A stretch of 64,000 nucleotides of DNA, from NCBI GenBank assembly GCA_951406725.2, contig OX597843.1, forward strand, positions 5,580,001 through 5,644,000, written 5' to 3'. The DNA comes from Octopus vulgaris (taxonomy: Eukaryota). Below, in pieces: positions 1 to 40,148 of this stretch. How positions within the stretch are numbered: position 1 is the stretch's first letter; each line of letters starts with the position of its first letter. The position numbers and the translations under genes were made by a program. The notes under the pieces were generated by a model. The model searched no databases. It was given only the letters and a program-made list of their open reading frames with translations, and was not told where the DNA came from.

Positions 1-47
1 GTGTGTATATATATATATATATACATATATGATTGCACATATATATA

Positions 48-78
<31 letters not shown>

Positions 79-2041
79 GTATATACATACATGTATACAT
101 ATATATGTATGTATAAAGATGTGTGTAGTATGCCAACCCAATATATGTATATATGTGTGTGTGTGCGTATATATATATATGATATATATTGATGCGTGTG
201 TGTGTAACTTATGCCATATACATAAGTTTTGCATGTCATACATATTTATATATAAACAATGTTGAATTTGTCTATTCAGTGTTTATTCATGAATTTCCAC
301 GCAATGGCCCATGGGTTAGAAGAGTACATGCGGACTCGCGGTTTCGATGTCCCTGTGCTGGGCAGTTTCCGTGAGTGTATATGGGGTCAGCAGAAAAACA
401 CCCACACACATAAGCTCCACAAGTGTCCTTCACTGCAGGAATTCATCCACGGCCATGGTGGTGATCCCGTGTACTCTTTCACCACAATGCTCGTCTCTCT
501 CTCTTACTTCCTGTTTCTGTTGTACCTGTATTTCAAAGGCGTACGACAGGCCATGTCACGTCGGTCATGTGTCGACTGCTCGAATCTGCCTTGAGAACCG
601 TACGTTAAGGGTACACGTATATATATAAGCTGTTAGTATATATATAAGCTGCTTATCATAAACCACTTTTCCAACTCTCTAACTTCTTTCCAGTCGCCAG
701 AAACAGGAAGACTTCTCCAATGGCCCCAGTATCACACACCACAAATATCTTGTTGGCACTGGTTGCCATTACGTAAAAGTCGGAGAACTCGCTGAAATAT
801 TGTAAGTTGGTTTACGTTTATCCAAGATTTTGAGGCCAAAACCGTAGGTTCTTATGCTGGTGCCACGTAAAAAGCACTCAGTCCACTCTGCAGGGTGGTG
901 ACATAAATTGGAAGGTCATCACGGTTCTGGTCAGTTTCATTTAGACTGACCTCACCTGTGCTGGTGCCAGAGTAAAAAGACCCTACTCAGTCCACTCTGT
1001 TTCAGTCATATGGCACTGCGGCCATGCTGGAGCATCCAGCCTATAAAAACGGTCGAGCAAATCGACCCTGTGGACTTATTCTTTGTAAGCCTAGTACTTA
1101 TTCTATCGGTCTCTTTTTGCCGAAGGGCATCCAGCCATAGTGACGGGGACATATAGACACACCAGCATATGTGTTGTATAAGCAATGCTAGGGTGTATAA
1201 ACACAGACACACATACACATAAGTGTATGGTATATATATACATATATACAGAACAGGCTTCTTTCAGTGTGTATAAGGTACAAGGCATTGGTCGGCGGGG
1301 GTATAGCAGAAGACACTTGCCCAAGATGCCACACAGTTCCCTGGCTTTGTGGCTGGTTAGGCCTAAGCTTCTCTTGAGCACAATGTAACCAAAGGCTTCG
1401 GTCATTGTTCATATTCTCTATGTAAGGCCCAACGCTCAGAGTGAAGGCACATGGCCCTAGTGGTTAGGATGATTGCATTTACAGTCAGGAGATTGCGGGT
1501 TCAATCTCCAGGACTGGGTGGTGTGTTATTTATGAGCAAATATCTAAGCTTCATTCCACGTGGCTCTGCCAGGCGAACTTCTGTTGGCAGAATTGTTAGT
1601 GCACCATTCTGAGTTCAAATCCCACCAAACTGAAGAAGGCAACTGGAAGCCACTCCAGTATTCATCCAAAGTCATGGATGGCTGTAGTTCCAGTAATGTA
1701 CTTAATGGCCGCAGGGGAGGGCACAGGACCTGCCCAAGGGCTGACCACCACTAAACTAGAGACTTAACAGCATGTGTTAACTGTTTTATTGCCTTATCAT
1801 GCGACACCAGCATATGAGGTATAAAAAAACAAATGTGTAAATAAATATCAAAAAGGGATCATGTTAAAACTCACTCTGTTACGATGCGTCCAAAGCGTTG
1901 TAGGATGTACACGTGTTTCACCAAAATGCTGAACTGATTACATAACATTAGAGACATTATGCAATCAAGCATTACACCTCATCAGTGTCCTGCCACAGAT
2001 ATGTATGTGTATGTACGTTTTGGCTCTCCCGTGGTCAAACT

Positions 2042-2082
<41 letters not shown>

Positions 2083-2991
2083 GATACAAAAGACAGTCGC
2101 CATGATAGATCGTTAGCCCTGCATCATCATCGTTTTTTTTCTCTCCTTGTTCCATGCTGTAGAAGAGCGTTATACTGGGAAGCCATCTGAAGGTTTTGTA
2201 CACCACCTCCAGTCTGATCTGGCATGTTTTTTTCATAAATTTCCCCTCCTATATATATATATATGTAGTGTGTGCTTATGCCACCGACACATATATATAT
2301 CACACGGTCGGATTCTCTTTTTCAGTCACTGGCATGGAAGGGTGAAGTGCGGCGCTGGCATCGGCCACGTTTGGATAGGTGCTTCATCAAAGTCCTTCAT
2401 TGCTACTTGAAATGGCCCATTATACAGACAGAAAGAGGGTTGGTCCTACTCACTTGTGTATATATATATGTGGATATATCTTAACATTAACTTTGGCCAT
2501 GCTGGAGCAACATCTTAAAAATCCTAAGTAGAATGAATCGACCCCAGTACTTGTTCTTTTCTCTCTCTCTTTTTTTTTTTTAAGGCCTGATACTTATTCT
2601 GTCAGTCTCGTTTTGCTAAACTGCTAAGTTGGGGTGGTGGGGTGTAACATACACTGACATCAGTTGTCAAGCAGTAGTGGGGGACAAACACACATTATAT
2701 ACGATGGGGCTTCTTTCAGTTTCCGTCCACATCCACTCACAAGGCTTTGGATGGCCTCAGTGTATGTGTGTGTGTATATATATATATATACATATACACA
2801 CACATACACTTATGTATATATATACACACACGTGTATAATTCCGTGCTAGTACGGGAAACGGACATTAAACGATGATGATATATAGATGTATATATGTAT
2901 ATATATATATATATGTATATATGATTGCACATATATGTATGTGTGTGTATATATATATATATATATACATATATGATTGCACATATATATA

Positions 2992-3022
<31 letters not shown>

Positions 3023-3379
3023 GTATATACATACATGTATACATATATATGTATGTATACATTGATGTATATATGTGTGTGTGTGCGTATATATATATAT
3101 GAGTGTGTATATATTGATGCGTGTGTGTGTGTAATTATGATATACATAAGTTTTGCATGTCATACATATTTATATATAAACAATTGTTTGTCTATTCAGT
3201 TTTACCTCTGAATTTCCACGCAAGCATGGGTTAGAAGAGTACATGGAAAAATGGATGTTAAAATAACAACAATAAAAACGGTGATGATGTCCCTGTGCTG
3301 GAAGCCGCAGTTTCCGTGAGAGGGGGGTCAGCAGACATGCTCTAGCCACACACACACACATGCGCACGTGCAGTGTCCT

Positions 3380-3626
3380 TCACTGCAGGAATTCATCCAC
3401 GGCCACGGGTTTCCGGACCCACCCCCCAATGCTCGACTCCACGCAGTGTTCGTAAAACTTCGTCTTCGCTTCCTGGTACGCCGCGGCCGACTGCTTCGTC
3501 TCAGCGTACGACAGGCTCGGGTCGACGTCGGTCATGTGCGACTGCTCACAGTACTGCCGGAACCGTCGCAGCATCGCGGCTTTGCACAGTCGGCTGGACA
3601 TGGTCGCCCCACTCTGGGTCGGGGAT
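3380..3626 (-). CDS. ADAD1: ADAD-like terminal coding exon 11
   Basis: ccttgcAG|A. Encodes SSRLCKAAMLRRF...YAETKQSAAAYQEAK...GWVRKPVAVDEFLQ, then TGA at 3382-3380. Confidence 0.92.
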
Positions 3627-6600
3627 CTGCAAGGGAGGATAAATAAAAAAATTACGTTAACCTCAAAGGCATGAGAAAACCAGTATGAACATACATATCA
3701 TCATCATCATCATCATCATACTATTATTATCGCCCCCTCCAATGGCCCCTCCCCTCTCAAAATTCCTTCTCTGTGCTGGTGCCACGTAAAAAGCACTTGG
3801 TCCACTCTGCTGGGTGGTTGGCATTTGGAAGGGCATCCAACTGTAAAAACCTTGCCAAAACTGACCTCACCTGTGCTGGTGCCATGTAGAAAGCACTCAG
3901 TCCACTCTGCAGAGTGGTTGGCATTTGGAAGGGCATCTAGTTGTAAAAACCTTGCCAAAACTGACCTCACCTGTGCTGGTGCCACATAAAAAGCACTCAG
4001 TCCACTCTGCAGGGTGGTTGGCATTTGGAAGGGCATCCAGCTATAAAAACGGTGCCAAAACTGACCTCACCTGTGCTGGTGCCATGCAAAAAGCACACAG
4101 TCCACTCTGCAGGGTGGTTGGCATTTGGAAGGGCATCCAGCCATAGTATGTACAGTATATATAGAGAAGCATATGTGTGTGTATAAGACAGAGAAGGGTG
4201 TATAATAATCAATGTAGAAGTCAATAAGTGTATGGTATTTGTGTGTGTGTATATATATATATACAGAACGCTATATGAGGTGTGTATAAGGTACAGGAGG
4301 GTATATATATGAGGGGTGGTGATAAGTTCCTGGCTTTTAGGTATCGTGATAGGCCTGGCTTCTTCTTGAGCACAATGTAATGCCAAAGGCTTCGGTCATT
4401 CGTCATTGTCTCCATGAGGCCCAACGCTCAGAGTGGAGGTACATGGCCCAGTGGTTAGAGCAGTGGGCTCGCAGTTGAGGTGTCGCGGGTTCGAATCTCA
4501 GACCGGGCGATGTGTGTATTTATGAGCGAAATATCTAAGCTCCGGCAGAAGGTAATGGCGAACTTCTGTTGACTCTTTCGTCACAACTTTTTCTCACTCT
4601 TTCCTCCTGCATCTTGCAGCTCACCTGCGATGGACCGGCATCCCATCCAAATGGGGAACCTATATGCCGAGGAAATTGGGAAACCCGCCCTTATGAACCA
4701 AGCATGGCTTGAGAAGGAACAAACACAACACTCGGAAGGTACTTTTCACGTGCCACCAGCATTGGCCATTGTGCCTCTGTGAGGCCCAATGTTCAAAAGG
4801 CACCTTTTATGTCTGACTGACACGGGTGCCAGTCATGCGACACCAGCATTATATATAAAAAAACAAATGTTAAATAAATATAAAAAGGGATCATGCTACT
4901 CACTCTGTTACGATGCGTCCAGTCAATCCGTTGGTCAGTTCAATCTTGTCTTGACCTTTGGCCCAATTCAAAGCAAGCTCGGTGGATTCAGCGTTCCTGA
5001 GATCATGGATCGGGGGTATAAACGACTGGTACAACCAGGGGTGGTTGATGCTGTAGCCGCGGGGCAACTGCGAGTTCAGTTCATCATAGAGTCGGCAGCA
5101 AACGGCTCGGGACAGATGACCGTGGTCAAACTGACTGGCTGGAAAATGGAGGGAACAGAGATAAAAACAGAAAAGCAAAAAAAGACATGCTGACATCATC
5201 ATCATCATCATCATCGTTTAACGTCCGTTTTCCATGCTAGCATGGGTTGGATGGTTCGACCGGGGTCTGGCAAGCCAGGGGCTGCACCAGGCTCCAGTCT
5301 GATCTGGCAGTGTTTCTACAGCTGGATGCCCTTCCTAACGCCAACCACTCCGTGAGTGTAGTGGGTGCTTTTTACGTGCCACCGACACATGTGCCAGACG
5401 AAGCTGGCAATGGCCACGGTCGGATTGGTGCTTTTTACGTGACACCGGCATGGGGGCCAGTCAAGGCGCTGGCACTGGCCACGTTCGGATGGTGCTTTTT
5501 ACATGCCACCGGCACGGAAGCCAGTCAAGGCGGCGCTGGCATCAGCCACAATTCGGATGGTGCTTTTTAAGTGCCACCGGCACGGAAGCCAGTCTAGGCG
5601 GCGCTGGCATCGGCCACGTTCGGATGGTGCTTTTTATGTGCCACCGGCACAGAAGCCAGTCGGGGCGGTGCTGGCATCGGCCACGTTCGGATGGTGCTTT
5701 TTATGTGCCACCGGCAAGGAAGCCAGTCAAGGCGGCGCTGGCATCAGCCACAATTCGGATGGTGCTTTTTACGTGACACTGGCATGGAAGCCAGTCAAGG
5801 CGGCGCTGGCATCGGCCACGTTTGGATGGTGCTTTTTACATGGTCCCTACATTAGGGGATGACATTCCAGCTTTTATCAACATGAAACAGGTAGAATATT
5901 TTGAGCTGGACAAGGTTTAAAACTGCTGCAATTTCACAAAGGGTTTCGTTAATTGGTCCGACCCCGGCGTTTTTGTGCATGGTCGCACTCTAACGAACGA
6001 AACCAGGAATATAAAAGTAAAAGACATAAAAAAAACCCAAAAAACAAACAAGCAAAGAATGAAAAAATGAAGGGGTATTTACCAAGGGTGATGCTTGAAA
6101 AGTAAAAGGGTGCCATGATTTTGGTGAGGAGACAGCCTTGGACCCCTAGCACGTTCCACTTAAGGATTTTATCACAGGTTGACATCACCTGAAGTTGCTC
6201 TTGGCGACTCTGCGTTATGTCCATCGTCTCTCGAACCACTGTGTTTTCAATGATGTGTTCCAAGCTACCTGCAGAAGAAAACCACCGTCAAATTAGTCTT
6301 TATTATCTTTATATATAAAACCAAAGTTGTGTGTGTGAGTGTCTGTCTCCTCCGATTTAGATTCCTAACTACTCCCACATTTAGCGGTGCAGTTTAACCA
6401 AAACCGGGTATCTTATAGTCGTGATTCATATCGAGCCCTTCTGGGTATTAGCACGCGTCTACGATGAGTCTACGATTTTAAAAATAATTTAACATCATTT
6501 TTTATTCCATTTTAATGCATATTTTTTCGTGTGTCGATGCACCTGTTTGCTTCTCCCCCTTCTTCCCTCCCTCGTAAAGCTGTGGGGAAGGGAGTGTAAG

Positions 6601-9600
6601 GAAATCAACGTCGTAAAGCGTTGTCAAGGAGACCAGCGTTCTTTTAGAACGACGACTTCATGGCTTGAAGACACCAAAACAGAAATGGCTAAGAAAGCCC
6701 GAATTGGCATCTATAAGGGAAGTAACTCTCTAAAAATGCTTATATAGTTATTTCCCTTACAAACCCGAGCAACGCCGGGCGATACTGCTAGTTATCTATA
6801 TATATAAAACTGTAGTTGTGTGAGTGCCTGTCCCCTTCGATTTAGATTCCTAACTACTCCCACATTTTGCGGTGCAGTTTAACCAAAACCGGGTATCTTA
6901 TAGTCGTGATTAATATCAAGCCCTTCTGGGTATTAGCGCGCGTCTACAATGAGTCTACGATTTAAAAAAAAAATTTACCATCATTTTTTTCCATTTTAAT
7001 GCATTTTTTCGCTATTACATAAGGGAAGTAACTCTCTAAAAATGTCTACGATGAGTCAATGATTTTTTGAAAAATTTACCATCATTTTTTTCCATTTTAA
7101 TGCATTTTTTTCGCTATTATATAAGGGAAGTAACTCTCTAAAAATGTCTACGATTTAAAAAAAAATTTACCATAATTTTTTTTCCATTTTTAATGCATTT
7201 TTTGCTATTTTTTGGCTATAACTCTCTAAAAATGCTTATATAGTTATTTCCCTTACAAACCCGAGCAACGCCGGGCGATACTGCTAGTTTATTATAAAAG
7301 AGAAGCCCGATCTTCATGTCTGTCTGTCTGTCCCGACGTATCTTGGAGGGAGAAGAGAAGGGAAGGAATCAGAAGGGGAGATAACTCATGTCACACCGTT
7401 TTGTTTTTGTTTTTTTTTAGAAAGGAAAAAAAGCTGTTGAGAGAGAAATAGTGAGAAAGAGAGATAGGCAGACAGCATTCACCCGGGGTGGGTTGAGCTG
7501 GCTGACGCACTACCAAAGTACGGATCTACCAAGCTCTAGTGCGAACGATTCTCCTTTACGGCAGCGAGTCATGGCCGACGAGGGTGGAAGATATTAAGCG
7601 ACTACAATCCTTCGATCACCTCTGTCTACGCCGCATCCTTCGTGTCCGATGGCATCACTTTGTCTCCAACAATTCGGTGCGACACCAGTGCAGAATCACC
7701 TCCCTCCGACAAGTCATCCTAACGAGACGTCTGCGTTGGCTGGGTCATGCCCTCCGTCGTCAACCAGGAGAATTCATCTACGAAGCAATTGCCCCAGCTC
7801 CCCTTCAGGGTTGGCGAAAGCGATGTGGTGGACAACGAAAAACCTGGCTGATGACAGTCAAGGCTGATCTGGAACCCAACCTACGAAGCAATTGCCCCAG
7901 CTCCCCTTCAGGGTTGGCGAAAGCGATGTGGTGGACAATGAAAAACCTGGCTGATGACAGTCAAGGCTGATCTGGAACCCAACCTACGAAGCAATTGCCC
8001 CAGCTCCCCTTCAGGGTTGGCAAAAGCGATGTGGTGGACAATGAAAAACCTGGCTGATGACGGTCAAGGCTGATCTGGAACCCAACCTACGAAGCAATTG
8101 CTCCAGATCCCCTTCAGGGTTATGGCTGATGAGGGAGGAAGATATTAAGCGATTAGAATCCTTCGATCACCTCTGTCTACGCCGCATCCTTCGTGTCCGA
8201 TGGCATCACTTTGTCTCCAACAATTCGGTGCGACACCAGTGCAGAATCACCTCCCTCCGACAAGTCTGCGTTGGCTGGGTCATGCCCTCCGTCGTCAACC
8301 AGGAGAATTCATCTACGAAGCAATTGCCCCAGCACCCCTTCAGGGTTGGCAAAAGCGATGTGGTGGACAACGAAAAACCTGGCTGATGACAGTCAAGGCT
8401 GATCTGGAACCCAACCTAGGCTCCCATATCTACGGCGTTCGCCACTGGAATAAGGAGTGGTTGGAGATCATGCGGTCATTAGCCTTAAATCGCCAGGCCT
8501 GGTCAGCGTTTGTGAGAGATGCAGCATTGAGGATGAATCAAGCCAGCTCAACCCACCCCGGGTGGATGCTGTCTCCAACAATTCGGTGCGACACCAGTGC
8601 AGAATCACCTCCCTCCGACAAGTCATCCTAACGAGATGTCTGCGTTGGCTGGGTCATGCCCTCCATCCTCAACCAGGAGAATTCATCTACGAAGCAATTG
8701 CCCCAGCTCCCCTTCAGGGTTGGCGAAAGCGATGTGGTGGACAACGAAAAACCTGGCTGACGACAGTCAAGGCTGATCTGGAGCCCAACCTACGAAGCAA
8801 TTGCTCCAGATCCCCTTCAGGGTTGGTGAAGGCGATCTGGTGGACAACGTGACATTACCACATTTTATTTAGACAAGAAAGAGTCACATTCACGCTGTGT
8901 GTGTGCATTCATAAACACACCAGGGCGTCTACGTTCGGTGACCGCAGTCACCTCCCCGGGACCTGGTCCCACGCCCAGCAACCGAACTCATAGGCGAAGG
9001 GGAACCCGGGGTGCCGGTGTATTAAGGTGGACGGCTGCCACCCGTCGAGGGTTAGAGCTTCCCCATCGAAGCGAACTAAGAGCATGTCCACCGCGGATGG
9101 ATTCACCCCCTGGCCGCATGGCTTCGTCCACTCAAGTCGGGGCCCTACATGATTCCCCGCTGGTTCGCTCGGGGACATGCAGACAATCGGCGCACACACT
9201 CACGCACAATATGCACGGAGAAGGACTCACCATCTGTGTACCGTAAACTCAAGGCCCCGTGATCTGATTCTTCAAATGCTGGTTTGTGAACTCCTCTGGC
9301 AATTTCTTCGTTATCTTCATGGGTAAGCAGTGCACTTGGCCTACAATCGGAAAGGAAACAAAAACATCAAACAAAAATATAAAGATTGCTGTGTGGTAAG
9401 TAGCTTGCTTACCAACCACATGGTTCTGGGTTCAGTCCCACTGCGTGGCACCTTGGGGAAGTGTCTTCTACCATAGCCTCGGGCCGACCAAAGCCTTGTG
9501 AGTGGATTTGGTAGACGGAAACTGAAAGAAGCCCGTCGTATATATGTATATGGGCGCAGGAGTGGCTGTATGGTAAGTAGCTTGCTTACCAACCACGTGG

Positions 9601-9968
9601 TTCCGAGTTCAGTCCCACCGCGTGGCACCTTGGGCAAGTGTCTTCTACTATAGCCTCGGGCTGACCGAAGCTTTGTGAGTAGATTTGGTAGACGGAAAGT
9701 GTAAGAAGTCCGCTGTATATATGTATATATATATATATGTATGTGTATGTATTTGTTTGTGTGTCTGTGTTTGTCCCCCCGACATCGCTTGACAACCAAA
9801 TGCTGGTGTGTTTGTGTCCCTGTAACTTAGCAGTTCAGCAAAAGAGACCGATGGAATAAGTACCAGGCTTACAAAGAATAAGTCCTGGGGTCAATTTGGT
9901 CGACTAAAGGCGGTGCTCCAGCATGGCTGCAGTCAAATGACTGAAACAAGTAAAACAGGAAAAAGAGA

Positions 9969-10012
<44 letters not shown>

Positions 10013-10620
10013 TTATATGAATGTATAAAATATATCTATGCCTCTCTCTCTGTATATATATATATATATATATATACATATAGGCGCAGGAGTGGCTGTG
10101 TGGTAAGTAGCTTGCTTATGAACCACATGGTTCTGGGTTCAGTCCCACTGCGTGGCACTTTGGACAAGTGTCTTCTACTATAGCCTCGGACCAACCAAAG
10201 CCTTGTCAGTGGATTTGGTAGATGGAAACTGAAAGAAGCCCATCGTATATATGTATATATATTTATGTATGTGTATGTCTTTGTTTATGAGGAATTTTAA
10301 GAAATGCAGAGGATTTAACAACAGCAAATAATATGTACAAAGAAAAAAAAATCGACTCTTCCCCTCCCCCATACCTCATACATATGCATGTATGTACACA
10401 CACACAGATATATGCATACATTCATCTGTACATACACACTTGCACATTCACGCAAATACATATACACACACACACTTATAAACATACACATGCATACATA
10501 CACACATGTACACACACACCCATGCATATATATATATATACACACACATAAACATACACACACACACACACAGACATGCATACACACACACATGTACACA
10601 CATATACACACACACACCCA

Positions 10621-10673
<53 letters not shown>

Positions 10674-12626
10674 TCATATACACACAGAGGTCACACATGA
10701 TGCCATGCAGTGGCAGACTGAATCCTGGGACTGTGTGGTTCAGAAGTCAAATCCTCGACCATCCAACCATGCCTGTCCCTATCAATTATCTTCACGGATT
10801 ACAATAAAAGAAAAACCAGACACTGGACTTACTTGCTCAAGAAGATACTATAGTCACCGGAGGGGGGGTCACTGAGGAAGAGGTGAAAGGTCACGTCCTT
10901 TTTTACATTCAAAAGACCCCCACTTTCGGGTGACATTTCGTATATACAGATGGGGGAATTCGGTTCAGCCAGGTAGCGCTGGAGTTCTAAATACAGGTAC
11001 CTGAAGGAAATGAAATGAAGAAGGAATGTGTAGGAATCTGTATTTGTGTGTGTGTGTGTGTGTGTGTGTACACATCTAGGTATGTGCTTCTTTATATATA
11101 TACTAGCAGTATTGCCTGGCGTTGCTCGGGTTTGTAAGGGAAATAACTATATAAGCATTTTTAGAGAGTTACTTCCCTTATAGATGCCAATTCGGGCTTT
11201 CTTAGCCATTTCTATTTTGGTGTCTTCAAGCCATGAAGTCGTTCTAAAAAAACGCTGGTCTCCTTGACAACGCTTTACGACGTTGATTTCCTTACACTCC
11301 CTTCCCCACAGCTTCACGAGGGAGGGAAGAAGGGGGAGAAGCAAACAGGTGCAGCTGTGAGCGTGGACGCCAACTCCGCCGCCATCGACACACGAAAAAT
11401 TATGCATTAAAATGGAATAAAAAATGATGTTAAATTATTTTTAAAATCGTAGACTCATCGTTGACGCGCGCTAATACCCAGAAGGGCTCGATATGAATCA
11501 CGACTATAAGATACCCGAATTTGGTTAAACTGCACCGCAAAATGTGGGAGTAGTTAGGAATCTAAATTGAAGGGGACAGACACTCACACAACTACAGTTT
11601 TATATATATGTTGGTGTAACATATGGATGCGAGACCTGGACACTAAAGAAAGCTGACCAGAAGAGAATTAATGCATTCGAGGTTTGGTGTTGGAGAAGAC
11701 TTTTACGGATTCCATGGACAGCGAGGCTCACCAATGGAGAAGTTCTTAAGCAGATCAGGCCGAAAATGTTGCTAGAAGCTAGGATCACCAAGCATAGATT
11801 GGCATATTATGCGGAGAAAATCCCTGGAGAAGGACATCATGCTCGGAATGGTCAGTGGCAAGAGAGGAAGAGGCCGACCAAGAACCCGCTGGCTTGACAC
11901 CATCAAGAGTGATACCGGAATGGACATAGCCAGTCTGAAAGAAGCAGCCCAGGATAGAACTGACTGGAGGACACTGATCCAATGAGTGACCAAGAGTCGA
12001 CTTGGACTAAACGGATAGAGAGATGTTGGTGTGTGTACATATATACAAGTGGATGCTGAAAAGCTCCTGGCTTTGGATAAAAGAAAATACAGGAGAATCA
12101 GTGAATTATGATTTTATTCAACATATTCCCCTCTCAGATTCACATACTGAGATTGCAGCGGTCCTTAAGTTTTTATAAGTCCTCTAAAAGAACTCAGGTT
12201 ACCACCCATTACACTCATGGAGTGGTTGGCGTTAGGAAGGGCATCCAGCCTTAGAAACATTGCCAGATCAGACTGGGCCTGATGCAGCCTTCTGGCTTCC
12301 CAGACCCCAATTGAACCGTCCAACCCATGCTAGCATGGAAAGCAGACGCTAATCGATGATGATGATGATGTACATACACACATATATCTATCATTATCAT
12401 CATTGTTCGACCGTGGTCGAGACAATGGAATTTACCATGCTACGCCAGACTTCACGGTCCATCATGGCATTACGGAGGTCCTGTTGCTGGATGCCTGTAT
12501 CCCTGGAGATTACATCAGGGTAGGAGAGTGTGCGCCCTCTGGTATTGCGAGTAGATGGCTTCCAGAGGAGAAGAGTAGAAATTACCTCTTTTTCAGCTCC
12601 ACAACAATGTCCAGCAAACTGGACTC

Positions 12627-12680
<54 letters not shown>

Positions 12681-15600
12681 ACCAGTCGCTATGATAGATT
12701 GTTAGCCACTACACACATTTTTTTCTCTCTTTGTTTCTTCTGTGTCCCTTTCTGTAGAAGAGCATAGGCTCGAAACGTAAAAGACTTCGAAACGTGGAGT
12801 AGATGAAACAAAGGCGACTGAAGAAGGGGAATTTTCCTTGTTTTGTATGTCCTGTACTCTATTTTTTCGTTGTTTAAGAAAAATGTCCATTTCCTTGGTT
12901 TTGTGTTTATGTTTTCGTTTCTCATTGTGTTCGACGTTTTTTTGGTGTCCTGTACTCATATATGCATGTATATATACATGTAGAGGTAGGTACGTACATA
13001 TATGTATGTATATATGCATATGCTTTGTTTATTATTTTTATATATATATATATATGGTTTTGTGTACATGCACAAATGTGTATGGTGAATGAATGTAGAC
13101 AAAGCTAGAAGGTACATTATTTACATCATTTACATTTGACAGATATTTGTCCTCATCTTGTTTGTTGTTAACGTTTTGGCTGATATACCCTCCAGCCTTC
13201 TTCAGGTGTCTTGGGGAAATTTTGAGCCTGGCATATAGCGTAGTGGTTAAGAGTGCGGGCAACTAACCCCAAGATTCCAAGTTCAATTTCAGGCAGTCCT
13301 GAATAATAATAATAATAACAACATCAAAAAATACCTATTTCTTTATTACCCACAAGGGGCTAAACACAGAGGGGACAAACAAGGACAGACATAGGTATTA
13401 AGTCGATTACATCAACCCCAGTGCTGTACTTAACTGGTACTTAATTTATCGACCCCGAAAGGATGAAAGGCAAAGTCGACCTTAGTGGAATTTGAACTCA
13501 GAACGTAACGCAGATGAAATACCGCTAAGCATTTCGCCCGGCGTGCTAACGTTTCTGCCAGCTCGCCGAGAACCCAGGTTCGAAATTTTCCCAAGACACC
13601 TGACGAAGGCTGGAGGGTATATCAGGCGAAACGTTAAGTGTTAACAACAAACAAGATGAGGACAAATATCCATCAAATGTAAATAATGTAAATAATTCTT
13701 CATTGAGGAAGAGAGAGGGAAAGAAGGGACAAGCCCCCTACCTGCGAAAGGCTCTGCATGCCAGCACTGCTGCATCGCTGTCGATTAAACATCGACCGTC
13801 GCTACTCAGGTTGCCGGGGGTCAGGCACTGGTGACCGATCGCCATGGAGATTACTTCTGGTTTATTATCTGAAGAACACAAACGAGAAAACATTTCGGAT
13901 ATGAAAAAGGTCTGTCAATGATGGCTTTGGAATGGCTTAAAAAATCTGGCATCTTTTCTTCCACCCGTCCACCCATTTTAACCCACCCTGTATTCCATGG
14001 AGGGATTTAAGGGTAGAATCCACTGAGCAGAATATCTGGGCTGGATATGGGCTTAAAAAAGTTATATATCTATACATGAAGCAATGAAGACCTATTGAGT
14101 CAAGTACATCAACACCAACATCAAAATATAAATCAAATGGAAATTATAGTTAAGATACCCATGCCGATGGCATGTAAAAAGCACCATCCGAACTTGGCAG
14201 TTGCCAGCGCCACCTGACTGGTGTCCGTGTCGGTGACACATAAAAGCACCATCTAATCGTGGCCCTTTGCCAGCCTGCTCTGGCCCCTCTGCTGGTGGCA
14301 TGAAAAAGCACCCACTACACTCATGGAGTGGTTGGCGTTAGGAAGAGCATCCAGCTGTAGAAACACTGCCAGATCAGACTGGAGCCTGGTGCAGCCCCTG
14401 GCTTCCCAGACCCCGGTTGAACCGTCCAACTTGTGCTAGCATGGAAAACGGACGTTAAACAATGATGATGACCAGTTTTTCATTGGAGGGCAATTAGAAA
14501 ATTTTACTGTGGGATAGATAAAATTTGTGTACCACACGAACCCCCATCGCCCACCTCACACCAGACCGCCATTAAAAAGAATAAAAGGGGATGAAGAACA
14601 AAAAAAAAAAAAAAAAACGGAAGAGAAAATGAGAATTCCTCACCGGACACAAGGATGACGGCTGCCACAGACTTCCTTCGGTAACGTAAGACTGAATACT
14701 GTTCGAGATACATGTACAGGTGGTTGTAGACGAGGTCGGTGAACTGTTGGCCCAAACTTTTACCTTCTGGTGCCACTTCCTAGAAGACAGGGGAAGGAAA
14801 ACAATGACACACACACACAAAACATGTTTACAGAGTGGGCCAAAAGTCATGCACCAAAACCCATCCGACATTACATCATTGTAATTCACTGCAACATGGT
14901 CTTTGCTCAGTGATCTTGGTGCAGGACTTTTATATTAGATTATATTCGATGATGGACAAAAAAATATATTGTTGCATCTCACTGAAATGTTTAATTCTGG
15001 GAGACAGCATGCGTGCCTCAGCAGGCCATCCTCATCCTTAAATGTCTGTCCAAATACACCTACATACATACACATGTATACACACATATGCACACACATA
15101 TGTACACACACGTACATGCATATACACATACGCACATATACACACACATACATACATATGCACATACACATGCATGCACACACACACAAATGCACACACA
15201 TGCATACACACACACACATGCAGATACATACATATATATACATGCATCATGCACACACACTTATATACATAAACACACACACTTGCATACATACATATAC
15301 GCATATACACATGCACACACACACATGTGCATACATACACACATAAATGCATAGATACATACATATATATACACACACACATGTACATATATACATACAC
15401 ACACAAGTGCATAGATACATTTATATACACGCATGTATGCACACACACACACTTATATAAACACACAAACACACACACACTTGCATACATTCATACATAT
15501 ATACACACACGTTCAACAGGCTTCTTTTCAATTTCTTTCATCCTAATCCACTGACAAGACTTTGGTCAGCCTAGGGCTGTAAAAGAAGACTTGCCTAGCA

Positions 15601-18600
15601 AAGTACCACTCGGTGGGACTGAACCTGGAACCTGGACCCCCACAAGAGCACAACAAAACCTACCTGGGCATATCTAATGTTCAGTTTTTCGAGGGCAGCC
15701 ACGCCGGCCAACCGCTTTGCCTCTTTCTTATTTTGTGCGACCGCCTCAACAAAATATTCGTTGTTCAACATCACACAAGCCTTGAAGCTGAAAATACACA
15801 ACACAGATCGCACAGTCAATGAGGGGTCACTCAATATGCTAAAAATGCCAGCTAAACCTCCCTTCGTTTACATATGTGTCTAACAAAGTTATATTGAGGG
15901 TTTTTGGTTTTGCGAAATACGGAAACCACCCATTGTAATTTTAACCCTTTTGTGTTCAAACCAGACAGATCCAGTCTCTCACACCTACCCTACAATGTCA
16001 TTCTAAAAATAAACAATAACAATCTTCAAAATCTCAAAGCTATGAGATAATCCAGGATTAAATCAAAACAATGTGGATAAATAAGGATTAGATTTGACAG
16101 GGTGATCTGAATGCTAAAGGATAATACATGCATAAGACATATGGTGTGGTTTGAGGGAGATTTGGCTGCTATTTCTAACAGGCTTAGCTACCATGTAGAG
16201 GTCTCCCTCATTGCTTCATACATATATATAATCCTTTAACATTTAAACTGGCTATATCCAGGCCGAATATTCTACTCCTTTCATGTTCAAACTAGCCATA
16301 TCTAGCTTCTCACACCTACCCTACAATGTCATTCTGAAAATAAACAATCACATCATTGAAATCTCAAAGCTATGAGATAATCCAGGGTTAATTAAAAACA
16401 ATGTGGATAAACAAGGATTACATTTGACAGAGTAATCGGAATGGTTAAAGGGTGATACATGCATAAGATGCCCTCTGACTGGCTCCCCCGTTTTATCCAC
16501 TCCCCGTTTCAAACGTAAACCCATGCCAGCATGGAAAACAGACATCAAACAAAGATGATGAAGACGATGACACACACATACACAGACATTAAAATATACA
16601 CTATTATACCGCCTTACTGGCACCTGTGCCCCGTGCTAGTAGGGTGCTAAGAGCACCATCCGAGCATGGTTGTTGTCAGAGTGGCTAACTGGCTTCCGTG
16701 CCAGTGGCACGTAAAAGGCACCATTTGAGCGTGATTGTTACCAGCGTCACCTTACTGGCACTCGAGCCCCGTGCTAGTAGGGTGCCAAGAGCACCATTCG
16801 AGGGTGATTGTTACCAGCATCACCTTACTGGCACCTGTGCCATTGGCATGTGTAAAAAGATTTGAACGAGGTTGTTGCCAGTACTACCTGACTGGCCCCT
16901 GTGCCGGTGGGACGTAAAATCACCCACTACACTCTCAGAGTGGTTGGCGTTAGGAAGGGCATCCAGCTGTAGAAACTCTGCCAGATCAAGATTGGAGCCT
17001 GGTGCAGCCATCTGGTTCGCCAGTCCGCAATCAAATTGTCGAACCCATGCTAGCATGGAAAGCGGATGTTAAACGATGATGATGATGATGATATACTACA
17101 CTGAAATATGCACTAAACATTATACAACACACACAGAATCAAACTACAGAGAGAAATAGATGGAGGTGTTCTTACCCCATTGGACCACGTTCGTCTCCAA
17201 CGACGATTTCGCAGGATTTCCCTGCTGCCAGCGCATACTCATAGAGCTGAGTGACCGAGTGTTTTTCTGCTGTTTTGCCAAGGTCGAGGGAAGGTTGGCT
17301 GTTGGTCACGGTTTGGGAGACACATTCTGTGGATAGAGAGAGAGAGAGAGAGAGAGGGATATACAGATAGGGGTCAATGCCTGGAATAAACACACTAGAT
17401 TAATTACTGACAAAATTATCTTATCAAATACTTCGTTATTATCTAAATTAATTAAAACAAAAACAGTGTATTTCAACAGAAGTATCCTCGTCCTGTGAAG
17501 TGGCTTGCAGATCTTTCCATCATGTTTCTGGGTTCAGTCCCACTGTGTGGCACCTTGGGCAAGTGTCTTCTATAGCCATGGGCCAACCAAAGACTTGTGA
17601 GTGGATTTGGTAGACTGTGTGGTTCAGAAGTCAAATCCTCGACCATCCAACCATGCCTGTCCCTATCAATTATCTTCACGGATTACAATAAAACAAAACT
17701 AGACACTGGACTTACTTTTGATACCAACCCATCTGAGACCATCCCCACTAGTTCTGTTTTACAAATTTCTTCTTTTAGTGTGACCTGAATTAAAACCTTC
17801 CAGAAAGATTTCATGTTAATTTAGGATCTGAACACCAGATTAATTAACAACAAAGTTGTTTAACTAAATTCATTATTTTCAAAATTAACTGAAAAAAAGG
17901 CAGGGTATTTCAACAGAAATATTGGGCAAGACTTCTGACCGTCCCCTACAAAAACCACCCTTTAAAAAAAAAAATTTTTTTTTGACACAAATCCCCCTTC
18001 AGCTACGGGGAATACAAATCCGCAAAAAAAAATTGGCAAAAATAGACATTTCTAAATGACCACCCCCACCCACATTTCCTTCATTTAAAATTTTTTTCTG
18101 ATTTTTTTTTCAAAATATGCAGAAAAATACGGAGATTATGATTCAGACAAAAATTTCAAAACATTTCTCTACTTTCGGTTAGGGTTTTTAGGGTTGGGGT
18201 TTTAGGTCTGTCTGGATCAGAATTGACCTGGGACTAAACTACAACAAGGAAGGACACAAAGAATGTACTTTGAACTACATCATGTTTGAATTAAAAAAAA
18301 CAAGATGGTCACATCTGGAGCGTCTTTGATCATCGATCTGTCTGGATCAGGACTGACCCAGAGCACAACAAAGCACTTACCGTTTCCATTAGATTTCTGC
18401 AAGACACCAATCTCAAAAGCTTTGATCGCAGCATTCGTCTTGGCTTCTTTCTTGGTGTTCCCGACACCCTGCGGGTACATCACATTGTTTATCTCCACCT
18501 GAACGGCGAAGATGGCCAGCGGGTGTTCTCGTGAAGGAAGGACATCGACTTCGTGGAAGGAGAGCTGGGGAAAGAAACAAAAACAAGGTCAGCTGTATTA

Positions 18601-19793
18601 AGGGGTTTTACTTGTCTCTGACATTAGAATGTGGCTGTGCTGGGGGCGTTAGAATGTGGCTGTGCTGGGGGCGTTAGAATGTGGCTGAGCTGGGGCCGTC
18701 AGAATGTGGCTGAGCTGGGGCCGTTAGAATGTGGCCATGCTGGGAGCGTTAGAATGTGCACAACAGGCGAACCACAACAGACCAAGTGCACGACAGGTGC
18801 ATCACGAAATGCAAGGGGTTACTGTATGTGTGTGCACTTTGCATGTACCACGTCCTTGCATTGTTTTTCGTTTATATATATGTGTGTGTGTGGAGGCGCA
18901 ATGGCCCAGTGGTTAGGGCAGCGGACTCACAGTTGTAGGATCGCGGTTTCGATTCCCAGACCGGGCGTTGTGAGTATTTATTGAGCGAAAACACCTAAAG
19001 CTCCACAAGGCTCCAGCAGGGGGTGGTGGCGATCTCTGCTGTACTCTTTCACCACAACTTTCTCTCACACTTTCTTCTGTTGGCCTGCTCGCTTAGCCAG
19101 CAGGGTGGTGTCATTTGAAGGCTAAAAAACAATGCGAAGCGCATTGTGACCAGCGATGCATAGCAACATCTGATGGCCTGGTCGGTCACGGTGATCATAT
19201 GATATATATATATATCATCATCATCATCATCATTTATCATCCGTTTTCCGTGCTAGCATGGGTTGGACGGTTCAACTAGGGTCTGGGAAGCTCGAAGGCT
19301 GCACCAGAGTCCAGTCTGATCTGGCAGTGTTTTTACAGCTGGATGCCCTTCCTAACGCCAACCACGCCGAGAGTCTAGTGGGTGCTTTTTATGTGCCACC
19401 GAAACAGGTGCCAGATGAGGCTGGCGAACGGCCACGCTCGGATGGTGCTTTTTACGTGCGTATTTATGTATCTATGAATGAATGTGTATACATGTAAATA
19501 TGCTTGTGTATATGCGCATGTATGTATATACATGTGTGTGTATGTATATGCATATTAGTTGTGTTTGAAAGAAGTACCTTAACTTTCCTCTGACTTGCAT
19601 ATTCATGAAGACACTGCACAGGGTTTTTCTCTTTGGATTGGTATTCCTTAATAAGGGTCTCCGATGCCCTTGCTAGTGTGCAGCTGACTGGGGCACTGTT
19701 GGGCGGTGCTTTTGATAAGCCTGGAATATATGGTTGATTGGGTGGGGTTTTTTTCTCGTAGTGTTTCTGGCCTGATTCCATTCCTTGGTACAT
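3380..19793 (-). CDS. ADAD1: ADAD-like (adenosine deaminase domain-containing, ADAR family) protein, 627 aa, 11 coding exons: 19793-19578, 18564-18381, 17326-17176, 15787-15664, 14779-14644, 13868-13742, 11000-10833, 9340-9231, 6268-6083, 5138-4904, 3626-3380
   Basis: All ten introns are GT-AG and the phases chain without a stop (1884 nt = 628 codons). It encodes two dsRBDs and an A-deaminase domain (FHLFLSDPPSGD, MSTCDKILKWNVLGVQG, LNW, SRLCKAAML, WVRKP). LIKEYQSKEKNPVQCLHEYA and SPTQSGATMSSRLCKAAMLRRF resemble vertebrate ADAD1 as I recall it. ADAD1 versus ADAD2 orthology is not resolved. Confidence 0.9.
3771..4145 (+). repeat. ~100-bp tandem repeat (x4) related to the RTE tail
   Basis: Unit cacctgtgctggtgcca...ggaagggcatccagct...aaaactgacct. 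Confidence 0.75.
4904..5138 (-). CDS. ADAD1: ADAD-like coding exon 10
   Basis: ttttccAG|CC ... GA|GTGAGT. Encodes HGHLSRAVCCRL...YSINHP...LALNWAKGQDKIELTNGLTG. Confidence 0.9.
5195..5840 (-). mobile_element. RTE 3'-end copy with ~67-bp tandem array
   Basis: Reverse complement of the 33400-33783 tail; the unit ccaccggcacggaagccagtc...ggtgcttttt repeats about 5 times. Similar tails at ~12200-12370, 14090-14470, 16610-17090, 19220-19460, 33940-34380, 39420-39730, 52950-53210, 59030-59570, 61400-61515 and 63580-64000. Confidence 0.8.
6083..6268 (-). CDS. ADAD1: ADAD-like coding exon 9
   Basis: ttctgcAG|GT ... TTG|GTAAAT. Encodes QLQVMSTCDKILKWNVLGVQGCLLTKIMAPFYFSSITL. Confidence 0.9.
6306..7287 (+). 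mobile_element. Two tandem non-autonomous Helitron-like elements (6306-6791, 6795-7287)
   Basis: Each starts A|TC-(TA)n and ends with the hairpin CCCGAGCAACGCCGGG followed by CTAG|T. Confidence 0.75.
7470..8850 (+). mobile_element. Rearranged concatemer of RTE-like LINE ORF2 C-terminal fragments
   Basis: LLYGSESW...RLRWLGHALRR...GGQRKTW occurs about 3 times with internal sub-duplications. 7473-7503 is the reverse complement of 8541-8572. Confidence 0.85.
9231..9340 (-). CDS. ADAD1: ADAD-like coding exon 8
   Basis: ttgtAG|G ... ATG|GTGAGT. Phases (2 in, 1 out) fit both neighbours. Encodes PSALLTHEDNEEIARGVHKPAFEESDHGALSLRYTD. Confidence 0.8.
10833..11000 (-). CDS. ADAD1: ADAD-like coding exon 7
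   Basis: tccttcAG|G ... AA|GTAAGT. Encodes YLYLELQRYL...VKKDVTFHLFLSDPPSGDYSIF. Confidence 0.88.
11103..11609 (-). mobile_element. Non-autonomous Helitron-like element, same family as 6306-6791
   Basis: Reverse complement of 6306-6791, with CTAG end at 11103-11106. Confidence 0.75.
11610..12025 (+). mobile_element. BovB-like RTE 3' fragment
   Basis: YGCETWTLKKADQKRINAFEVWCWRRLLRIPWTAR...EKDIMLG...RGRPRTRWLD. Confidence 0.8.
12398..12630 (-). mobile_element. LINE (RTE-like) 3' fragment; near-identical copy at 55845-56082
   Basis: RRVQFAGHC...LLWKP...AMMDREVWR with a (TGA)n tail. Confidence 0.75.
12690..13695. mobile_element. Penelope-like terminal-repeat remnants with degenerate hammerheads; inverted pair 13113-13230 / 13570-13692 around a SINE
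   Basis: 12748-12783 (+) reads CTTT-CTGTAGA-A-GAGC-ATAG-GCTC-GAAAC-GTA-AAAG. 13595-13642 (+) reads GACAC-CTGACGA-AGGCTG...CAGGC-GAAAC. An inverted copy lies at 13165-13210. Confidence 0.45.
13742..13868 (-). CDS. ADAD1: ADAD-like coding exon 6; degenerate HAE motif (DSDAA)
   Basis: ttcttcAG|AT ... AG|GTAGG. Encodes PEVISMAIGHQCLTPGNLSSDGRCLIDSDAAVLACRAFR. Too short for the ORF track. Confidence 0.85.
14644..14779 (-). CDS. ADAD1: ADAD-like coding exon 5; start of deaminase domain
   Basis: tcttctAG|GAA ... CCG|GTGAG. Encodes QFTDLVYNHLY...RRKSVAAVIL. Confidence 0.85.
15664..15787 (-). CDS. ADAD1: ADAD-like coding exon 4; rest of dsRBD2
   Basis: attttcAG|C ... CAG|GTAGG. Encodes FKACVMLNNEYFVEAVAQNKKEAKRLAGVAALEKL. 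Confidence 0.9.
17176..17326 (-). CDS. ADAD1: ADAD-like coding exon 3; linker and start of dsRBD2
   Basis: (ct)n-ccacAG|AA ... GG|GTAAG. Encodes KHSVTQLYEYALAAGKSCEIVV. Confidence 0.85.
18381..18564 (-). CDS. ADAD1: ADAD-like coding exon 2; rest of dsRBD1
   Basis: ttccccAG|CTC ... ACG|GTAAGT. Encodes LSFHEV...YPQGVGNTKKEAKTNAAIKAF (KKxAK motif). Confidence 0.9.
18624..18757. repeat. 25-bp minisatellite, ~5.5 copies
   Basis: Unit ttagaatgtggctgtgctgggggcg. Confidence 0.85.
18891..19200 (+). mobile_element. Second tRNA-derived SINE family
   Basis: Head ggaggcgcaatggcccagtggttagggcagcggactc...ttcgattccc with A/B boxes. Copies at 4434-4730, 44441-44745 and 49960-50230 (-). Confidence 0.8.
19578..19793 (-). 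CDS. ADAD1: ADAD-like coding exon 1 (exon starts at 19808, ATG at 19793); N-terminus and start of dsRBD1
   Basis: Acceptor cttccAG|G at 19809/19808, donor AAG|GTACTT. Encodes MYQGMESG...KNPVQCLHEYASQRKVK. Confidence 0.8.
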
Positions 19794-30621: not shown

Positions 30622-30920
30622 TAATAAGGGTAGACATTGATAGACTTGTATATTTTGAGCTTGAAAGATTTTTGGAGTCGTAAGGCATCTATATATATAA
30701 AACGAAGAATATGTGTCTGTCTGTGTGAATCCCTAAAACTTGAGAACTACGCTACCAATTACATTCAAATTTTCAACCTCTTGCCTAGGGCGAGCCCACA
30801 ATAATATCATATCTTTACTATTTCAGTATTACGTGTCAAAAATGAAAGAAAACCATCTCTCTATTGTAATGTCAGATGCTTTCACTTTAATACTGAAACT
30901 ATTAAAGTCAAACTATTATA

Positions 30921-38866: not shown

Positions 38867-40148
38867 ATATATATAAAGCTGCTGTTGTCTGTGTATGGCA
38901 GGTTTGGTAGCCTTCAACTAACACAATCTCCTCCGGGACCCTGCGGCACAAGTTGACCAAAATTGAGAGTTTGATAAAAGAAGGCTTGCTCTTCCTTCCG
39001 TAGAAGAAAAAAATTCAAATGGGACAATGTTAACACCAAAAATTATTTACATCAAAAAGGTGCTTTTTTTCTATGAAAATCCCTATTTTTTACTACTTTT
39101 TTACTGCTGTGTCGCCATTTTTCGGTGTATTTCAACCAGAAAAATGTTCACTTAAAGAGAATAACAAGCTACATAATGCAAAATTTTTACTTTTCAAAAA
39201 TTCCAATTCTAAAGGGTCGAAACAAACCCGAGTAACGCCGGGCGATACTGCTAGTTTACATATATATATTTGTGTGTGTATTTATATTTGTATAAATGTT
39301 TGTCTTGACTTGATTTTTCCCTCGTAGACTTAAAGGTGGGGGCTGATAAATCAAGAACCAACTGGATATTGGTCCTCATTCTATATGCTGGGTGATATTG
39401 AAATTTCGCTAAAACCATGCACCATTCAAGCGTTGGGCCTCACGGAAGCAACGACAAATGACCGAGGCCTTTGGCAATATGCGGTGCCTGAGAAGAAGAC
39501 CCCATGAAGCCCCCAAGTGAAATAGCAGTCGTGGCAGATACTGGTGTAATGCAACTGGCACACAAAAGCACCTATTACATTCTCGGAGTGGTTAGCGTAA
39601 GGAAGGGTATCCAGCCGTAAAAACCATGCGAAACCTATCTGGAATCTGGTGCAGCCCCTCGGTTTACCAGCCCTGGTTAAACCATCCAACCCATGCCACC
39701 ATGGTCAACGGACGTTAAGTGATGATGATGATATATACAGAGAGAGCCGGGGGGGGGTTAATGTATGAAAACAAGAGAGAGAAAATTTTGAAATACCTTG
39801 TTTTTACTCATCTTTTCTTTGGTGTATATATATACGTGTGTAGAAATCAAAATATGTGAGTGTGTATAAATAAAAATAAATATATATAATTGTGTCTGTA
39901 TGTAAGTTGTGTATAAATGTACTTATATATAGCACTCTCTCCCCGTGTAAACTCCAGCAACATTGAAGTGGTTTCGATTTTATCCACCCACAAGCAGTGA
40001 TCACGTGGCTTTCTGTTTACCCAGGAAGTACAGAGGTCTCTTGCAGTCTGACCTATTTATAAAGTAGGGGAAATCCCACCGTAATATGGTCACGAATATG
40101 CTGTCTCTCTCACTCTCGTTCTCTCTCTCTCTCTCTCTCTGTCTATCT

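What the first reader, a model, noticed from the sequence alone, without database searches (positions are those of the whole stretch)
3380..19793. Catalytically dead ADAR-family (ADAD-like) gene with two dsRBDs in a probable cephalopod
Seen: a complete 627-aa spliced ORF. Against human ADAR2 motifs (recalled numbering), CHAE becomes SDAA (H394->D, E396->A; 13768-13776), PCGD becomes PSGD (C451->S; 10859-10861) and MSCSDK becomes MSTCDK (C516->T; 6177-6179), so all three Zn ligands and the catalytic Glu are gone. None of these codons (GAT, GCA, TCC, ACC) can be restored by A-to-I editing. Established: vertebrate ADAD1/2 are inactive germline proteins with a single dsRBD, and an inactive ADAR/ADAD-like gene has been reported in coleoids, so the gene class is not new. 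Inference: with two KKxAK-bearing dsRBDs, it could compete with or modulate active ADARs in a lineage with extensive recoding.
Basis: partly seen in the sequence, partly recalled or inferred. Interest (0 to 1): 0.72.

Follow-up and report, generated by a model that had tools for sequence, protein, structure and literature searches.

The report
Octopus ADAD: a dead RNA editor
This octopus gene is the counterpart of an already described squid protein that looks like an RNA-editing enzyme but lacks the residues needed to edit, and it likely serves as an RNA-binding scaffold; the surprise is that relatives in a lamp shell, a tube worm and two moss animals keep a complete active site and may still be working enzymes.

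Summary
Eleven minus-strand exons give a 627-aa protein identical to RefSeq XP_029652946.1 (Octopus sinensis ADAD1). It has two KKEAK dsRBDs and an ADAR-fold deaminase domain with H394D, E396A, C451S and C516T, plus R400C and a lost base-flipping loop; most IP6 contacts remain.

Two dsRBDs are usual in lophotrochozoan ADADs, not a cephalopod novelty. The likeliest role is a germline-type RNA-binding scaffold, inferred from vertebrate ADADs; octopus tissue expression was not obtained.

New by-product: the ADAD clade (100/99 support) includes Lingula, Owenia, Bugula and Watersipora proteins that keep every catalytic, flipping-loop and dimer-helix residue checked, and amphioxus keeps H/E/C/C. ADADs were therefore probably not dead at origin, and octopods lie at the far end of the decay. 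Ten searches of open papers found no report of this. Activity is untested and the branching inside the clade is unresolved.

The parts
39797..39811 (-). Upstream coding mini-exon (MSKNK) of the 637-aa X1 isoform
   Evidence: Single degenerate-pattern match followed by GT; equals residues 1-5 of P0005
19578..19808 (-).
18381..18564 (-). Exon 2: rest of dsRBD1 with KKEAK
17176..17326 (-). Exon 3: linker and start of dsRBD2
15664..15787 (-). Exon 4: rest of dsRBD2 with KKEAK
14644..14779 (-). Exon 5: first helix and strand of the deaminase domain
13742..13868 (-). Exon 6: decayed HAE motif (H394D 13776-13774, E396A 13770-13768, R400C 13758-13756)
10833..11000 (-). Exon 7: decayed PCG motif (C451S 10861-10859); 168 nt, absent from one O. 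vulgaris model
9231..9340 (-). Exon 8: 5' RNA-binding loop region, K483->R
6083..6268 (-). Exon 9: lost GEG flipping loop, C516T (6179-6177), IP6 contacts K519 and R522K
4904..5138 (-). Exon 10: deaminase domain core (DHGHLSRA helix)
3380..3626 (-). Exon 11: ADAD-type SP loop before SRLCK, IP6 contacts K629/Y658/K662/Y668/K672/W687/K690, stop codon

Best explanation
The gene encodes the octopus ADAD, a protein with two dsRNA-binding domains and an ADAR-type deaminase domain that has lost its zinc, catalytic and base-flipping residues, is predicted to be unable to edit, and likely acts as an RNA-binding scaffold, probably mainly in germ cells. Shown here: gene structure, identity with the RefSeq protein, orthology with squid sqADAR/D-like, loss of H394/E396/C451/C516, the GEG loop and R510, and retention of 9 of 12 IP6 contacts unchanged plus one conservative change. 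Predicted: an intact ADAR fold. Inferred: the dsRBDs grip duplex RNA; IP6 keeps the dead domain folded as a protein-binding platform, as the mouse ADAD2 deaminase domain is for RNF17; the complex controls mRNA fate or piRNA-related processing in RNA granules. Competition with ADAR2 for duplexes is a real in vitro property of the squid orthologue but is read here as a secondary effect.
For: Identity. Single copy beside intact ADAR1 (C5), ADAR2 (C6) and an ADAT-like gene (C1): 13 matches at 4 loci from 17 candidates scored. Orthology: Octopus+Argonauta sister to the cuttlefish cluster at 100/100, inside a mollusc clade (100/99), inside an ADAD clade with vertebrate ADAD1 (100/99). The published squid qPCR oligos translate to peptides found only in those decapod proteins (9 of the stored proteins), and the squid gene also has 11 coding exons. 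Inactivity: squid orthologue shows no deamination even at 5-fold excess and octopus has lost H394 as well. Fold kept: mean pLDDT 86.6, TM 0.89 to human ADAR1 9b83. Across 42 dead ADADs, R401 is kept in 42, K519 in 41, K629/K662/W687 in 40, against E396 in 1 and C451 in 9. dsRBDs are the best conserved parts (84-85% Octopus vs Argonauta; deaminase domain 70%, linker 41%). Vertebrate function: germ-cell specific, needed for fertility, no effect on editing in mouse; a missense change in the dead domain acts as a null in zebrafish; the dead domain binds RNF17.
Against: The germline role is transferred from vertebrates; no octopus or mollusc gonad expression or phenotype data were found. The squid gene was cloned from neural cDNA and is expressed at low level in nerve and gill; gonad was not assayed. 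The squid protein does inhibit ADAR2 in vitro. Lophotrochozoan ADADs keep a second dsRBD that deuterostome ones lack, so their RNA binding may differ. An octopus RNF17 partner was not looked for.
Confidence: 0.55

Rival explanations
1. It is a physiological brake on ADAR2, working like vertebrate ADAR3: it occupies duplexes through its two dsRBDs and lowers recoding at ADAR2 sites in neurons or other somatic tissue.
For: Squid orthologue blocks sqADAR2a/b but not sqADAR1 in excess in vitro; it is expressed in three neural tissues and gill; both KKEAK motifs are intact in all full-length coleoid copies seen; ADAR2-like two-dsRBD layout.
Against: Inhibition needed excess protein while the message is the scarcest of the three in nerve. 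Two dsRBDs are shared with mussel, abalone, brachiopod and bryozoan ADADs. Mouse ADAD loss does not change editing.
Confidence: 0.27
2. It is a positive targeting cofactor like C. elegans ADR-1: it binds RNA and recruits an active ADAR by protein contact, steering which sites are edited.
For: ADR-1 is a dead paralogue that works this way (PMC7360552 passage) and falls in or beside the ADAD group in the trees of PMC9989829 Fig. S2. The octopus protein keeps the residues aligned to ADAR2 T501 and D503 (their role in ADAR2 dimers is recalled).
Against: Mixing squid proteins gave no synergy, only inhibition of ADAR2. T501/D503 equivalents are kept in only 31% and 24% of the ADAD clade.
Confidence: 0.1
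3. It is a decaying, functionless relic.
For: All four catalytic residues, the flipping loop and two IP6 contacts are changed; the coleoid stem branch is long (0.64).
Against: Open frame over 11 exons, identical protein in the O. sinensis record, 94.8% identity to an O. bimaculoides fragment over 174 aa, domain-biased conservation, orthologues across molluscs and deuterostomes.
Confidence: 0.03
4. It has a hidden route back to activity (other exons, editing of its own message, or a shifted Cys at position 517 as metal ligand).
For: A Cys follows T516 in both octopods.
Against: No intronic stretch matches intact ADAD/ADAR motifs and no HAE, SCSDK or GEGTIP motif occurs in any frame of the window; the one PCGD match lies in DPH3. 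A-to-G changes cannot restore any codon. Squid message is unedited and the protein inactive.
Confidence: 0.03

Closest known systems
sqADAR/D-like of Doryteuthis pealeii (Vallecillo-Viejo et al. 2023, PMC10278661)
   Same: Orthologue: two dsRBMs, 11 coding exons over about 15-16 kb, E396A, C451S, C516 lost, R522K.
   Different: Octopods have also lost H394 (to D) and R400 (to C), and have T rather than A at 516. The octopus protein has not been assayed in any paper found here.
RefSeq XP_029652946.1 / XP_029652945.1 (Octopus sinensis ADAD1 X2/X1) and O. vulgaris models such as CAI9744312.1
   Same: X2 is identical over all 627 aa.
   Different: Automated annotation only; the models differ in 5' exons and one lacks exon 7.
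Vertebrate ADAD1 (TENR) and ADAD2
   Same: Same clade as ADAD1, dead catalytic site, kept IP6 pocket, shared SP loop before SRLCK and helix before dsRBD1.
   Different: One dsRBD (aligned to octopus dsRBD1) instead of two; vertebrates keep H394; different substitutions (H/V/K/S versus D/A/S/T); testis specificity is shown there and untested here. No named ADAD2 was in my trees.
Mollusc and other lophotrochozoan ADAD clade (Rosani et al. 2019 PMC6651903; Zhang et al. 2023 PMC9989829)
   Same: Single-copy ADAD clade distinct from ADAR1 and ADAR2; oyster ADAD has 2 dsRBDs.
   Different: All 8 ADAD rows in Zhang's Table S2 lack a full H/E/C/C set (2 are fragments). Here 9 of 51 clade members keep H/E/C/C and 4 keep the flipping loop as well.
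Vertebrate ADAR3 and C. elegans ADR-1 (inactive regulators of editing)
   Same: Inactive ADAR-family proteins with two or more dsRBDs that can alter editing by active ADARs.
   Different: ADAR3 is an ADAR2 paralogue that keeps its catalytic residues; the octopus gene lies in the ADAD clade. ADR-1 was not in my trees.

Membership tests
ADAD family | Deaminase domain groups with vertebrate ADAD, apart from ADAR1 and ADAR2 | tested here: met
   100/99 with 8 catalytic columns removed, 40 rows; same 51 of 201 rows, SH 0.999, with 53 catalytic, loop and signature columns removed
ADAD family | dsRBD(s) plus A_deamin, no Z-alpha domain | tested here: met
   Pfam: 2 dsrm stretches plus A_deamin, no Z-alpha
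ADAD family | Loss of Zn-binding and catalytic residues | tested here: met
   D/A/S/T at 394/396/451/516; note that this feature fails for 9 of 51 clade members
ADAD family | Clade-specific sequence marks (SP loop before SRLCK; YIPGL) | tested here: met
   Loose SP mark in 39 of 51 vs 0 of 150; YIPGL in 28 of 51 vs 0 of 150; octopus has both but not the strict SPF(K/R) form; marks were chosen after viewing the alignment
ADAD family | Single dsRBD (vertebrate definition) | tested here: not met
   Two dsRBDs, as in 8 of 9 lophotrochozoan ADADs; one in 7 of 7 deuterostome ADADs, so the feature fits deuterostomes only
ADAD family | Germ-cell-specific expression and need for gametogenesis | not testable with these tools
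   No tissue-labelled data were reachable; squid orthologue is detectable in nerve and gill, gonad not assayed
ADAD family | Binding to RNF17/PIWI-pathway proteins through the dead domain | not tested
   Known for mouse ADAD2; no octopus partner sequence was in hand
sqADAR/D-like orthologue group | Sister relationship, 11 coding exons, two dsRBMs | tested here: met
sqADAR/D-like orthologue group | No deaminase activity; inhibits ADAR2 in vitro | not testable with these tools
   Shown for squid only
Active ADAR1/ADAR2 | H394, E396, C451, C516, K483, GEG loop, R510 | tested here: not met
   0 of 4 catalytic residues; loop reads GSL; the genome's ADAR1 and ADAR2 lie elsewhere with intact motifs
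ADAR3 (ADARB2) | ADAR2-clade deaminase domain with catalytic residues kept | tested here: not met
   Outside the ADAR2 clade; residues lost

The most novel reading that the evidence does not exclude
The ADAD family began as a third class of active ADAR and still is one in some animals. ADADs of Lingula (XP_023930977.1), Owenia (CAH1802225.1), Bugula (KAF6037789.1) and Watersipora (XP_067932536.1) keep H/E/C/C, K483, the GEG flipping loop, R510 and the TxDG helix while carrying ADAD-only marks. Amphioxus keeps H/E/C/C without the loop. Molluscs, ambulacrarians and vertebrates then lost activity separately and stepwise (loop first, then E396, then Zn ligands), and the octopod gene, with all four catalytic residues and R400 gone, is among the end points of the series.
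Probability: 0.45. Interest if true: 0.7.

Novelty: already known. Interest (0 to 1): 0.38.

Why it matters
The gene itself adds little: it is annotated, and its squid orthologue has been cloned and assayed. It matters as one end of a natural series. If the brachiopod, annelid and bryozoan ADADs edit RNA, the working definition of ADAD as catalytically inactive is wrong. Those animals would have an unrecognised third editing enzyme, and its targets could show what ADADs did before they became fertility factors, a question still open for human ADAD1/2. The series from intact enzyme to the octopus protein also separates what the dead domain must keep (fold, IP6 pocket, SP loop) from what it can lose. 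For cephalopod recoding, one cheap measurement (gonad versus nerve expression) and one knockout would decide between germline scaffold and ADAR2 brake.

Tried and rejected
Expression from public runs: no RNA holder on record was listed. Four guessed-RNA contig runs were laid on window 3200-6000 only. They covered intronic repeats and gave no cover of exons 10-11 and no splice joint. The runs had evidently been picked by repeat words, tissues are unknown and contigs show presence, not absence, so this says nothing on expression; junctions of exons 1-9 and the exon-7 skip were not examined.

Homodimer of the deaminase domain (residues 228-627, two copies): no verdict, score 0.00 in two runs, alignment not used; not evidence either way.

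AU tests gave no rejection: dead ADADs as one clade p=0.19; the four intact ADADs joined to ADAR1 p=0.052; lophotrochozoan ADADs as one clade p=0.08. Repeated loss is therefore not proven by the gene tree alone. A first IQ-TREE run on 57 rows timed out; 17 rows were left out for the 40-row tree, and flipping-loop columns could not be removed there but were.

Hidden restoring exons and self-editing: rejected. Extra gene copies in 20 kb of flank on each side: none. Two dsRBDs as a cephalopod novelty: rejected.

Gonad expression in print: term searches of PMC11202624 (supplement), PMC9699675 (text and supplements), PMC6341066 (text and supplements) and PMC9068888 (one supplement) found no ADAD entry. 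The 2015 octopus genome paper is not held. dN/dS could not be computed because no other species' CDS was in hand. Earlier findings of the scan: none by sequence or place; three by words concern unrelated protist and fungal deaminases.
Full report
1. Observation. Eleven minus-strand exons between 19793 and 3380, with GT-AG at all ten introns, give 1884 nt and 627 residues without an internal stop. The product is identical to XP_029652946.1, Octopus sinensis ADAD1 isoform X2, and to residues 11-637 of isoform X1, whose first five codons lie in a small exon at 39811-39797. The window is therefore from an Octopus of the vulgaris/sinensis group. One O. vulgaris model lacks exon 7 and another uses different 5' exons. 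The four codons are at the stated places, and no A-to-G change restores them. Alignment to human ADAR1 and ADAR2 PDB chains puts them in the HAE, PCG and SCSDK registers. ADAR2 numbers for Zn, proton-shuttle and IP6 residues follow Table 1 of PMC10278661 and were mapped through a bat ADAR2; numbers and roles for E488, R510, T501/D503 and K594 are recalled.

2. Anatomy. Pfam finds two dsrm stretches and a full-length A_deamin domain. Both dsRBDs carry KKEAK. AlphaFold2 with a 58-row alignment gives mean pLDDT 86.6, with low confidence only in the N-terminus and linkers; Foldseek matches human ADAR1 (9b83, TM 0.89 by target, rmsd 3.0) and ADAR2 (1zy7, 0.85). Of 12 IP6 contacts, 9 are identical, R522 is K, and R400 and S531 are C. 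No intronic segment or frame of the window holds an intact motif. The genome search scored 17 candidates and kept 13 matches at four loci: this gene, ADAR1 (C5), ADAR2 (C6) and an ADAT-like gene (C1); the other three show intact motifs where seen.

3. Identity. In an IQ-TREE PMSF tree of 40 deaminase domains (17 of 57 rows left out for run time; 8 catalytic columns removed), Octopus and Argonauta are sister to a cuttlefish cluster (100/100). They sit inside a mollusc clade (100/99), inside an ADAD clade with vertebrate ADAD1, tunicate, amphioxus, hemichordate, echinoderm, brachiopod, annelid and bryozoan members (100/99). A FastTree of 201 non-redundant domains (382 aligned, 1 dropped for gaps, the rest filtered at 80% identity) gives the same clade of 51 at 0.999, also after 53 catalytic, loop and signature columns are removed. 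The published qPCR oligos for sqADAR/D-like translate to peptides found only in the decapod sister proteins. The gene is thus the orthologue of sqADAR/D-like. PMC10278661 (main text read, parts 1-5 of 6) reports two dsRBMs, 11 coding exons, no activity, inhibition of sqADAR2a/b but not sqADAR1 when in excess, an unedited message and the lowest neural expression of the three genes; gonad was not sampled.

4. What is particular to octopods. Octopus, Argonauta and an O. bimaculoides fragment have D at 394 and C at 400; the full-length decapod proteins seen keep H and R (squid Table 1). Two dsRBDs are not particular: 8 of 9 lophotrochozoan ADADs scanned have two and 7 of 7 deuterostome ones have one; oyster ADAD is listed with two in Table S2 of PMC9989829.

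5. Mechanism. Selection has spared the RNA-binding domains and the fold, not catalysis. Octopus versus Argonauta identity is 84-85% in the dsRBDs, 70% in the deaminase domain and 41% in the linker. Among 42 clade members lacking a full H/E/C/C set, R401 is kept in 42, K519 in 41 and K629, K662 and W687 in 40, whereas E396 is kept in 1, C451 in 9, and H394 and C516 in 17 each. This fits a pseudoenzyme whose IP6-filled domain serves as a platform (inference). In vertebrates (passages read): mouse Adad1 and Adad2 mutants are sterile with unchanged editing (PMC7360552); a missense change in the zebrafish Adad1 dead domain behaves as a null (PMC10437952); the ADAD2 dead domain binds RNF17 and recruits it to P-bodies (PMC10040813). 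I commit to an RNA-binding scaffold acting mainly in germ cells (0.55), with a somatic brake on ADAR2 as main rival (0.27). The weak step is the tissue: nothing here shows where the octopus gene is expressed, and the squid gene is detectable in nerve and gill.

6. By-product: intact ADADs. Nine of 51 clade members keep H/E/C/C, and four (Lingula, Owenia, Bugula, Watersipora; accessions) also keep K483, E488 and R510. At 26 columns where non-ADAD proteins are at least 85% conserved and most ADADs have drifted, these four mostly keep the ADAR residue, including the GEGT-P loop and TxDG helix, while they share ADAD-specific residues such as the SP loop. That loop mark occurs in 39 of 51 clade members and 0 of 150 others; the marks were picked after viewing the alignment. 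Lingula has a separate ADAR1; Watersipora has a second, divergent ADAR outside the ADAD clade. Amphioxus ADAD (XP_066304477.1) keeps H/E/C/C but not the loop; a tunicate keeps H and E; hemichordates and an oyster have lost E396 but keep the Zn ligands. Since the intact state equals the ADAR ancestral state, the founder of the ADAD clade most likely had a complete site (inference). Against over-reading: intact residues do not prove activity, as ADAR3 shows (passage). The gene tree joins molluscs with deuterostomes (89/85; 0.98), against the species tree, which is either long-branch attraction or two ancient ADAD paralogues. AU tests reject neither a single dead clade (p 0.19), nor joining the intact four to ADAR1 (p 0.052), nor lophotrochozoan monophyly (p 0.08). 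E396V recurs in several lineages and could be shared rather than convergent. There was no ADAT outgroup, named ADAD2 or ADR-1 in my trees.

7. Literature. PMC6651903 (section 5 read whole, other passages) recovers a lophotrochozoan ADAD clade from genomes that include Lingula, without comment in that text on ADAD catalytic residues; its alignment files were not seen and may show them. PMC9989829 (passages, part 1 of 2 of the supplementary figures, all 8 ADAD rows of Table S2) calls ADAD catalytically inactivated, lists no intact member and no octopus or lancelet ADAD. PMC7761149 (passages) reports only two ADAR-family genes in B. lanceolatum. PMC4323055, PMC5558901, PMC8797187 and PMC9068888 were seen as passages; the figure in PMC9068888 on ADAR-family expression is not held and may bear on the tissue question. 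The 2015 octopus genome paper was not available; that it lists an ADAR-like gene is recalled. Ten full-text searches found no report of intact ADADs; subscription journals and bioRxiv supplements were not covered.

8. Verdict. The finding is accurate but known: an annotated gene whose squid orthologue has been assayed, including the proposed competition. The octopod losses of H394 and R400 are a small addition. The lead worth following is the set of ADADs with complete active sites. Interest 0.38; novel case probability 0.45, interest 0.7 if true.

Noticed in passing
window 35696-35941 (+): Single-exon DPH3-like gene (CSL zinc ribbon, Pfam E 7e-23) lying on the opposite strand inside the 20-kb first intron of the X1 isoform.
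   Followed up: partly
window 42043-42783 (+): RFXAP-like open frame (PF15289, E 6e-9), head-to-head with the upstream MSKNK exon about 2.2 kb away; a shared promoter region is possible but untested.
   Followed up: partly
window 1-2450: Colinear, garbled copy (roughly 55-75% alike) of about 2900-5500, with shards of exons 10-11; no open frame recovered. A 100-N gap lies about 7 kb further on (L013:2966-3065). Likely a poorly polished assembly duplicate or a decayed tandem copy.
   Followed up: partly
window 30700-33100 (+): Frameshifted LINE-type reverse transcriptase remnant with a PHD-like finger in the long first intron.
   Followed up: no
window 10833-11000 (-): Exon 7 is a symmetric 168-nt exon missing from one O. 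vulgaris model (P0004); skipping it would delete a core strand and the PSG motif. Annotation error or real isoform is open.
   Followed up: partly
window 7500-8850: Array of about 60-nt and longer imperfect tandem repeats in intron 8, seen by eye.
   Followed up: no
L016:4445-6561 (-): Array of about 107-nt tandem repeats, open in successive frames, 10-12 kb beyond the window's right end.
   Followed up: no
proteins P0076, P0249, P0276, P0290 (unnamed sources) and P0278 (amphioxus): ADAD-clade proteins that keep H/E/C/C but have lost the GEG loop and R510: a possible zinc-binding, non-flipping intermediate state.
   Followed up: partly
G000:C1:137351422-137357997: Fourth A_deamin locus with intact HAE and SCSDK motifs, taken as ADAT1 by elimination; not tested by tree.
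   Followed up: no
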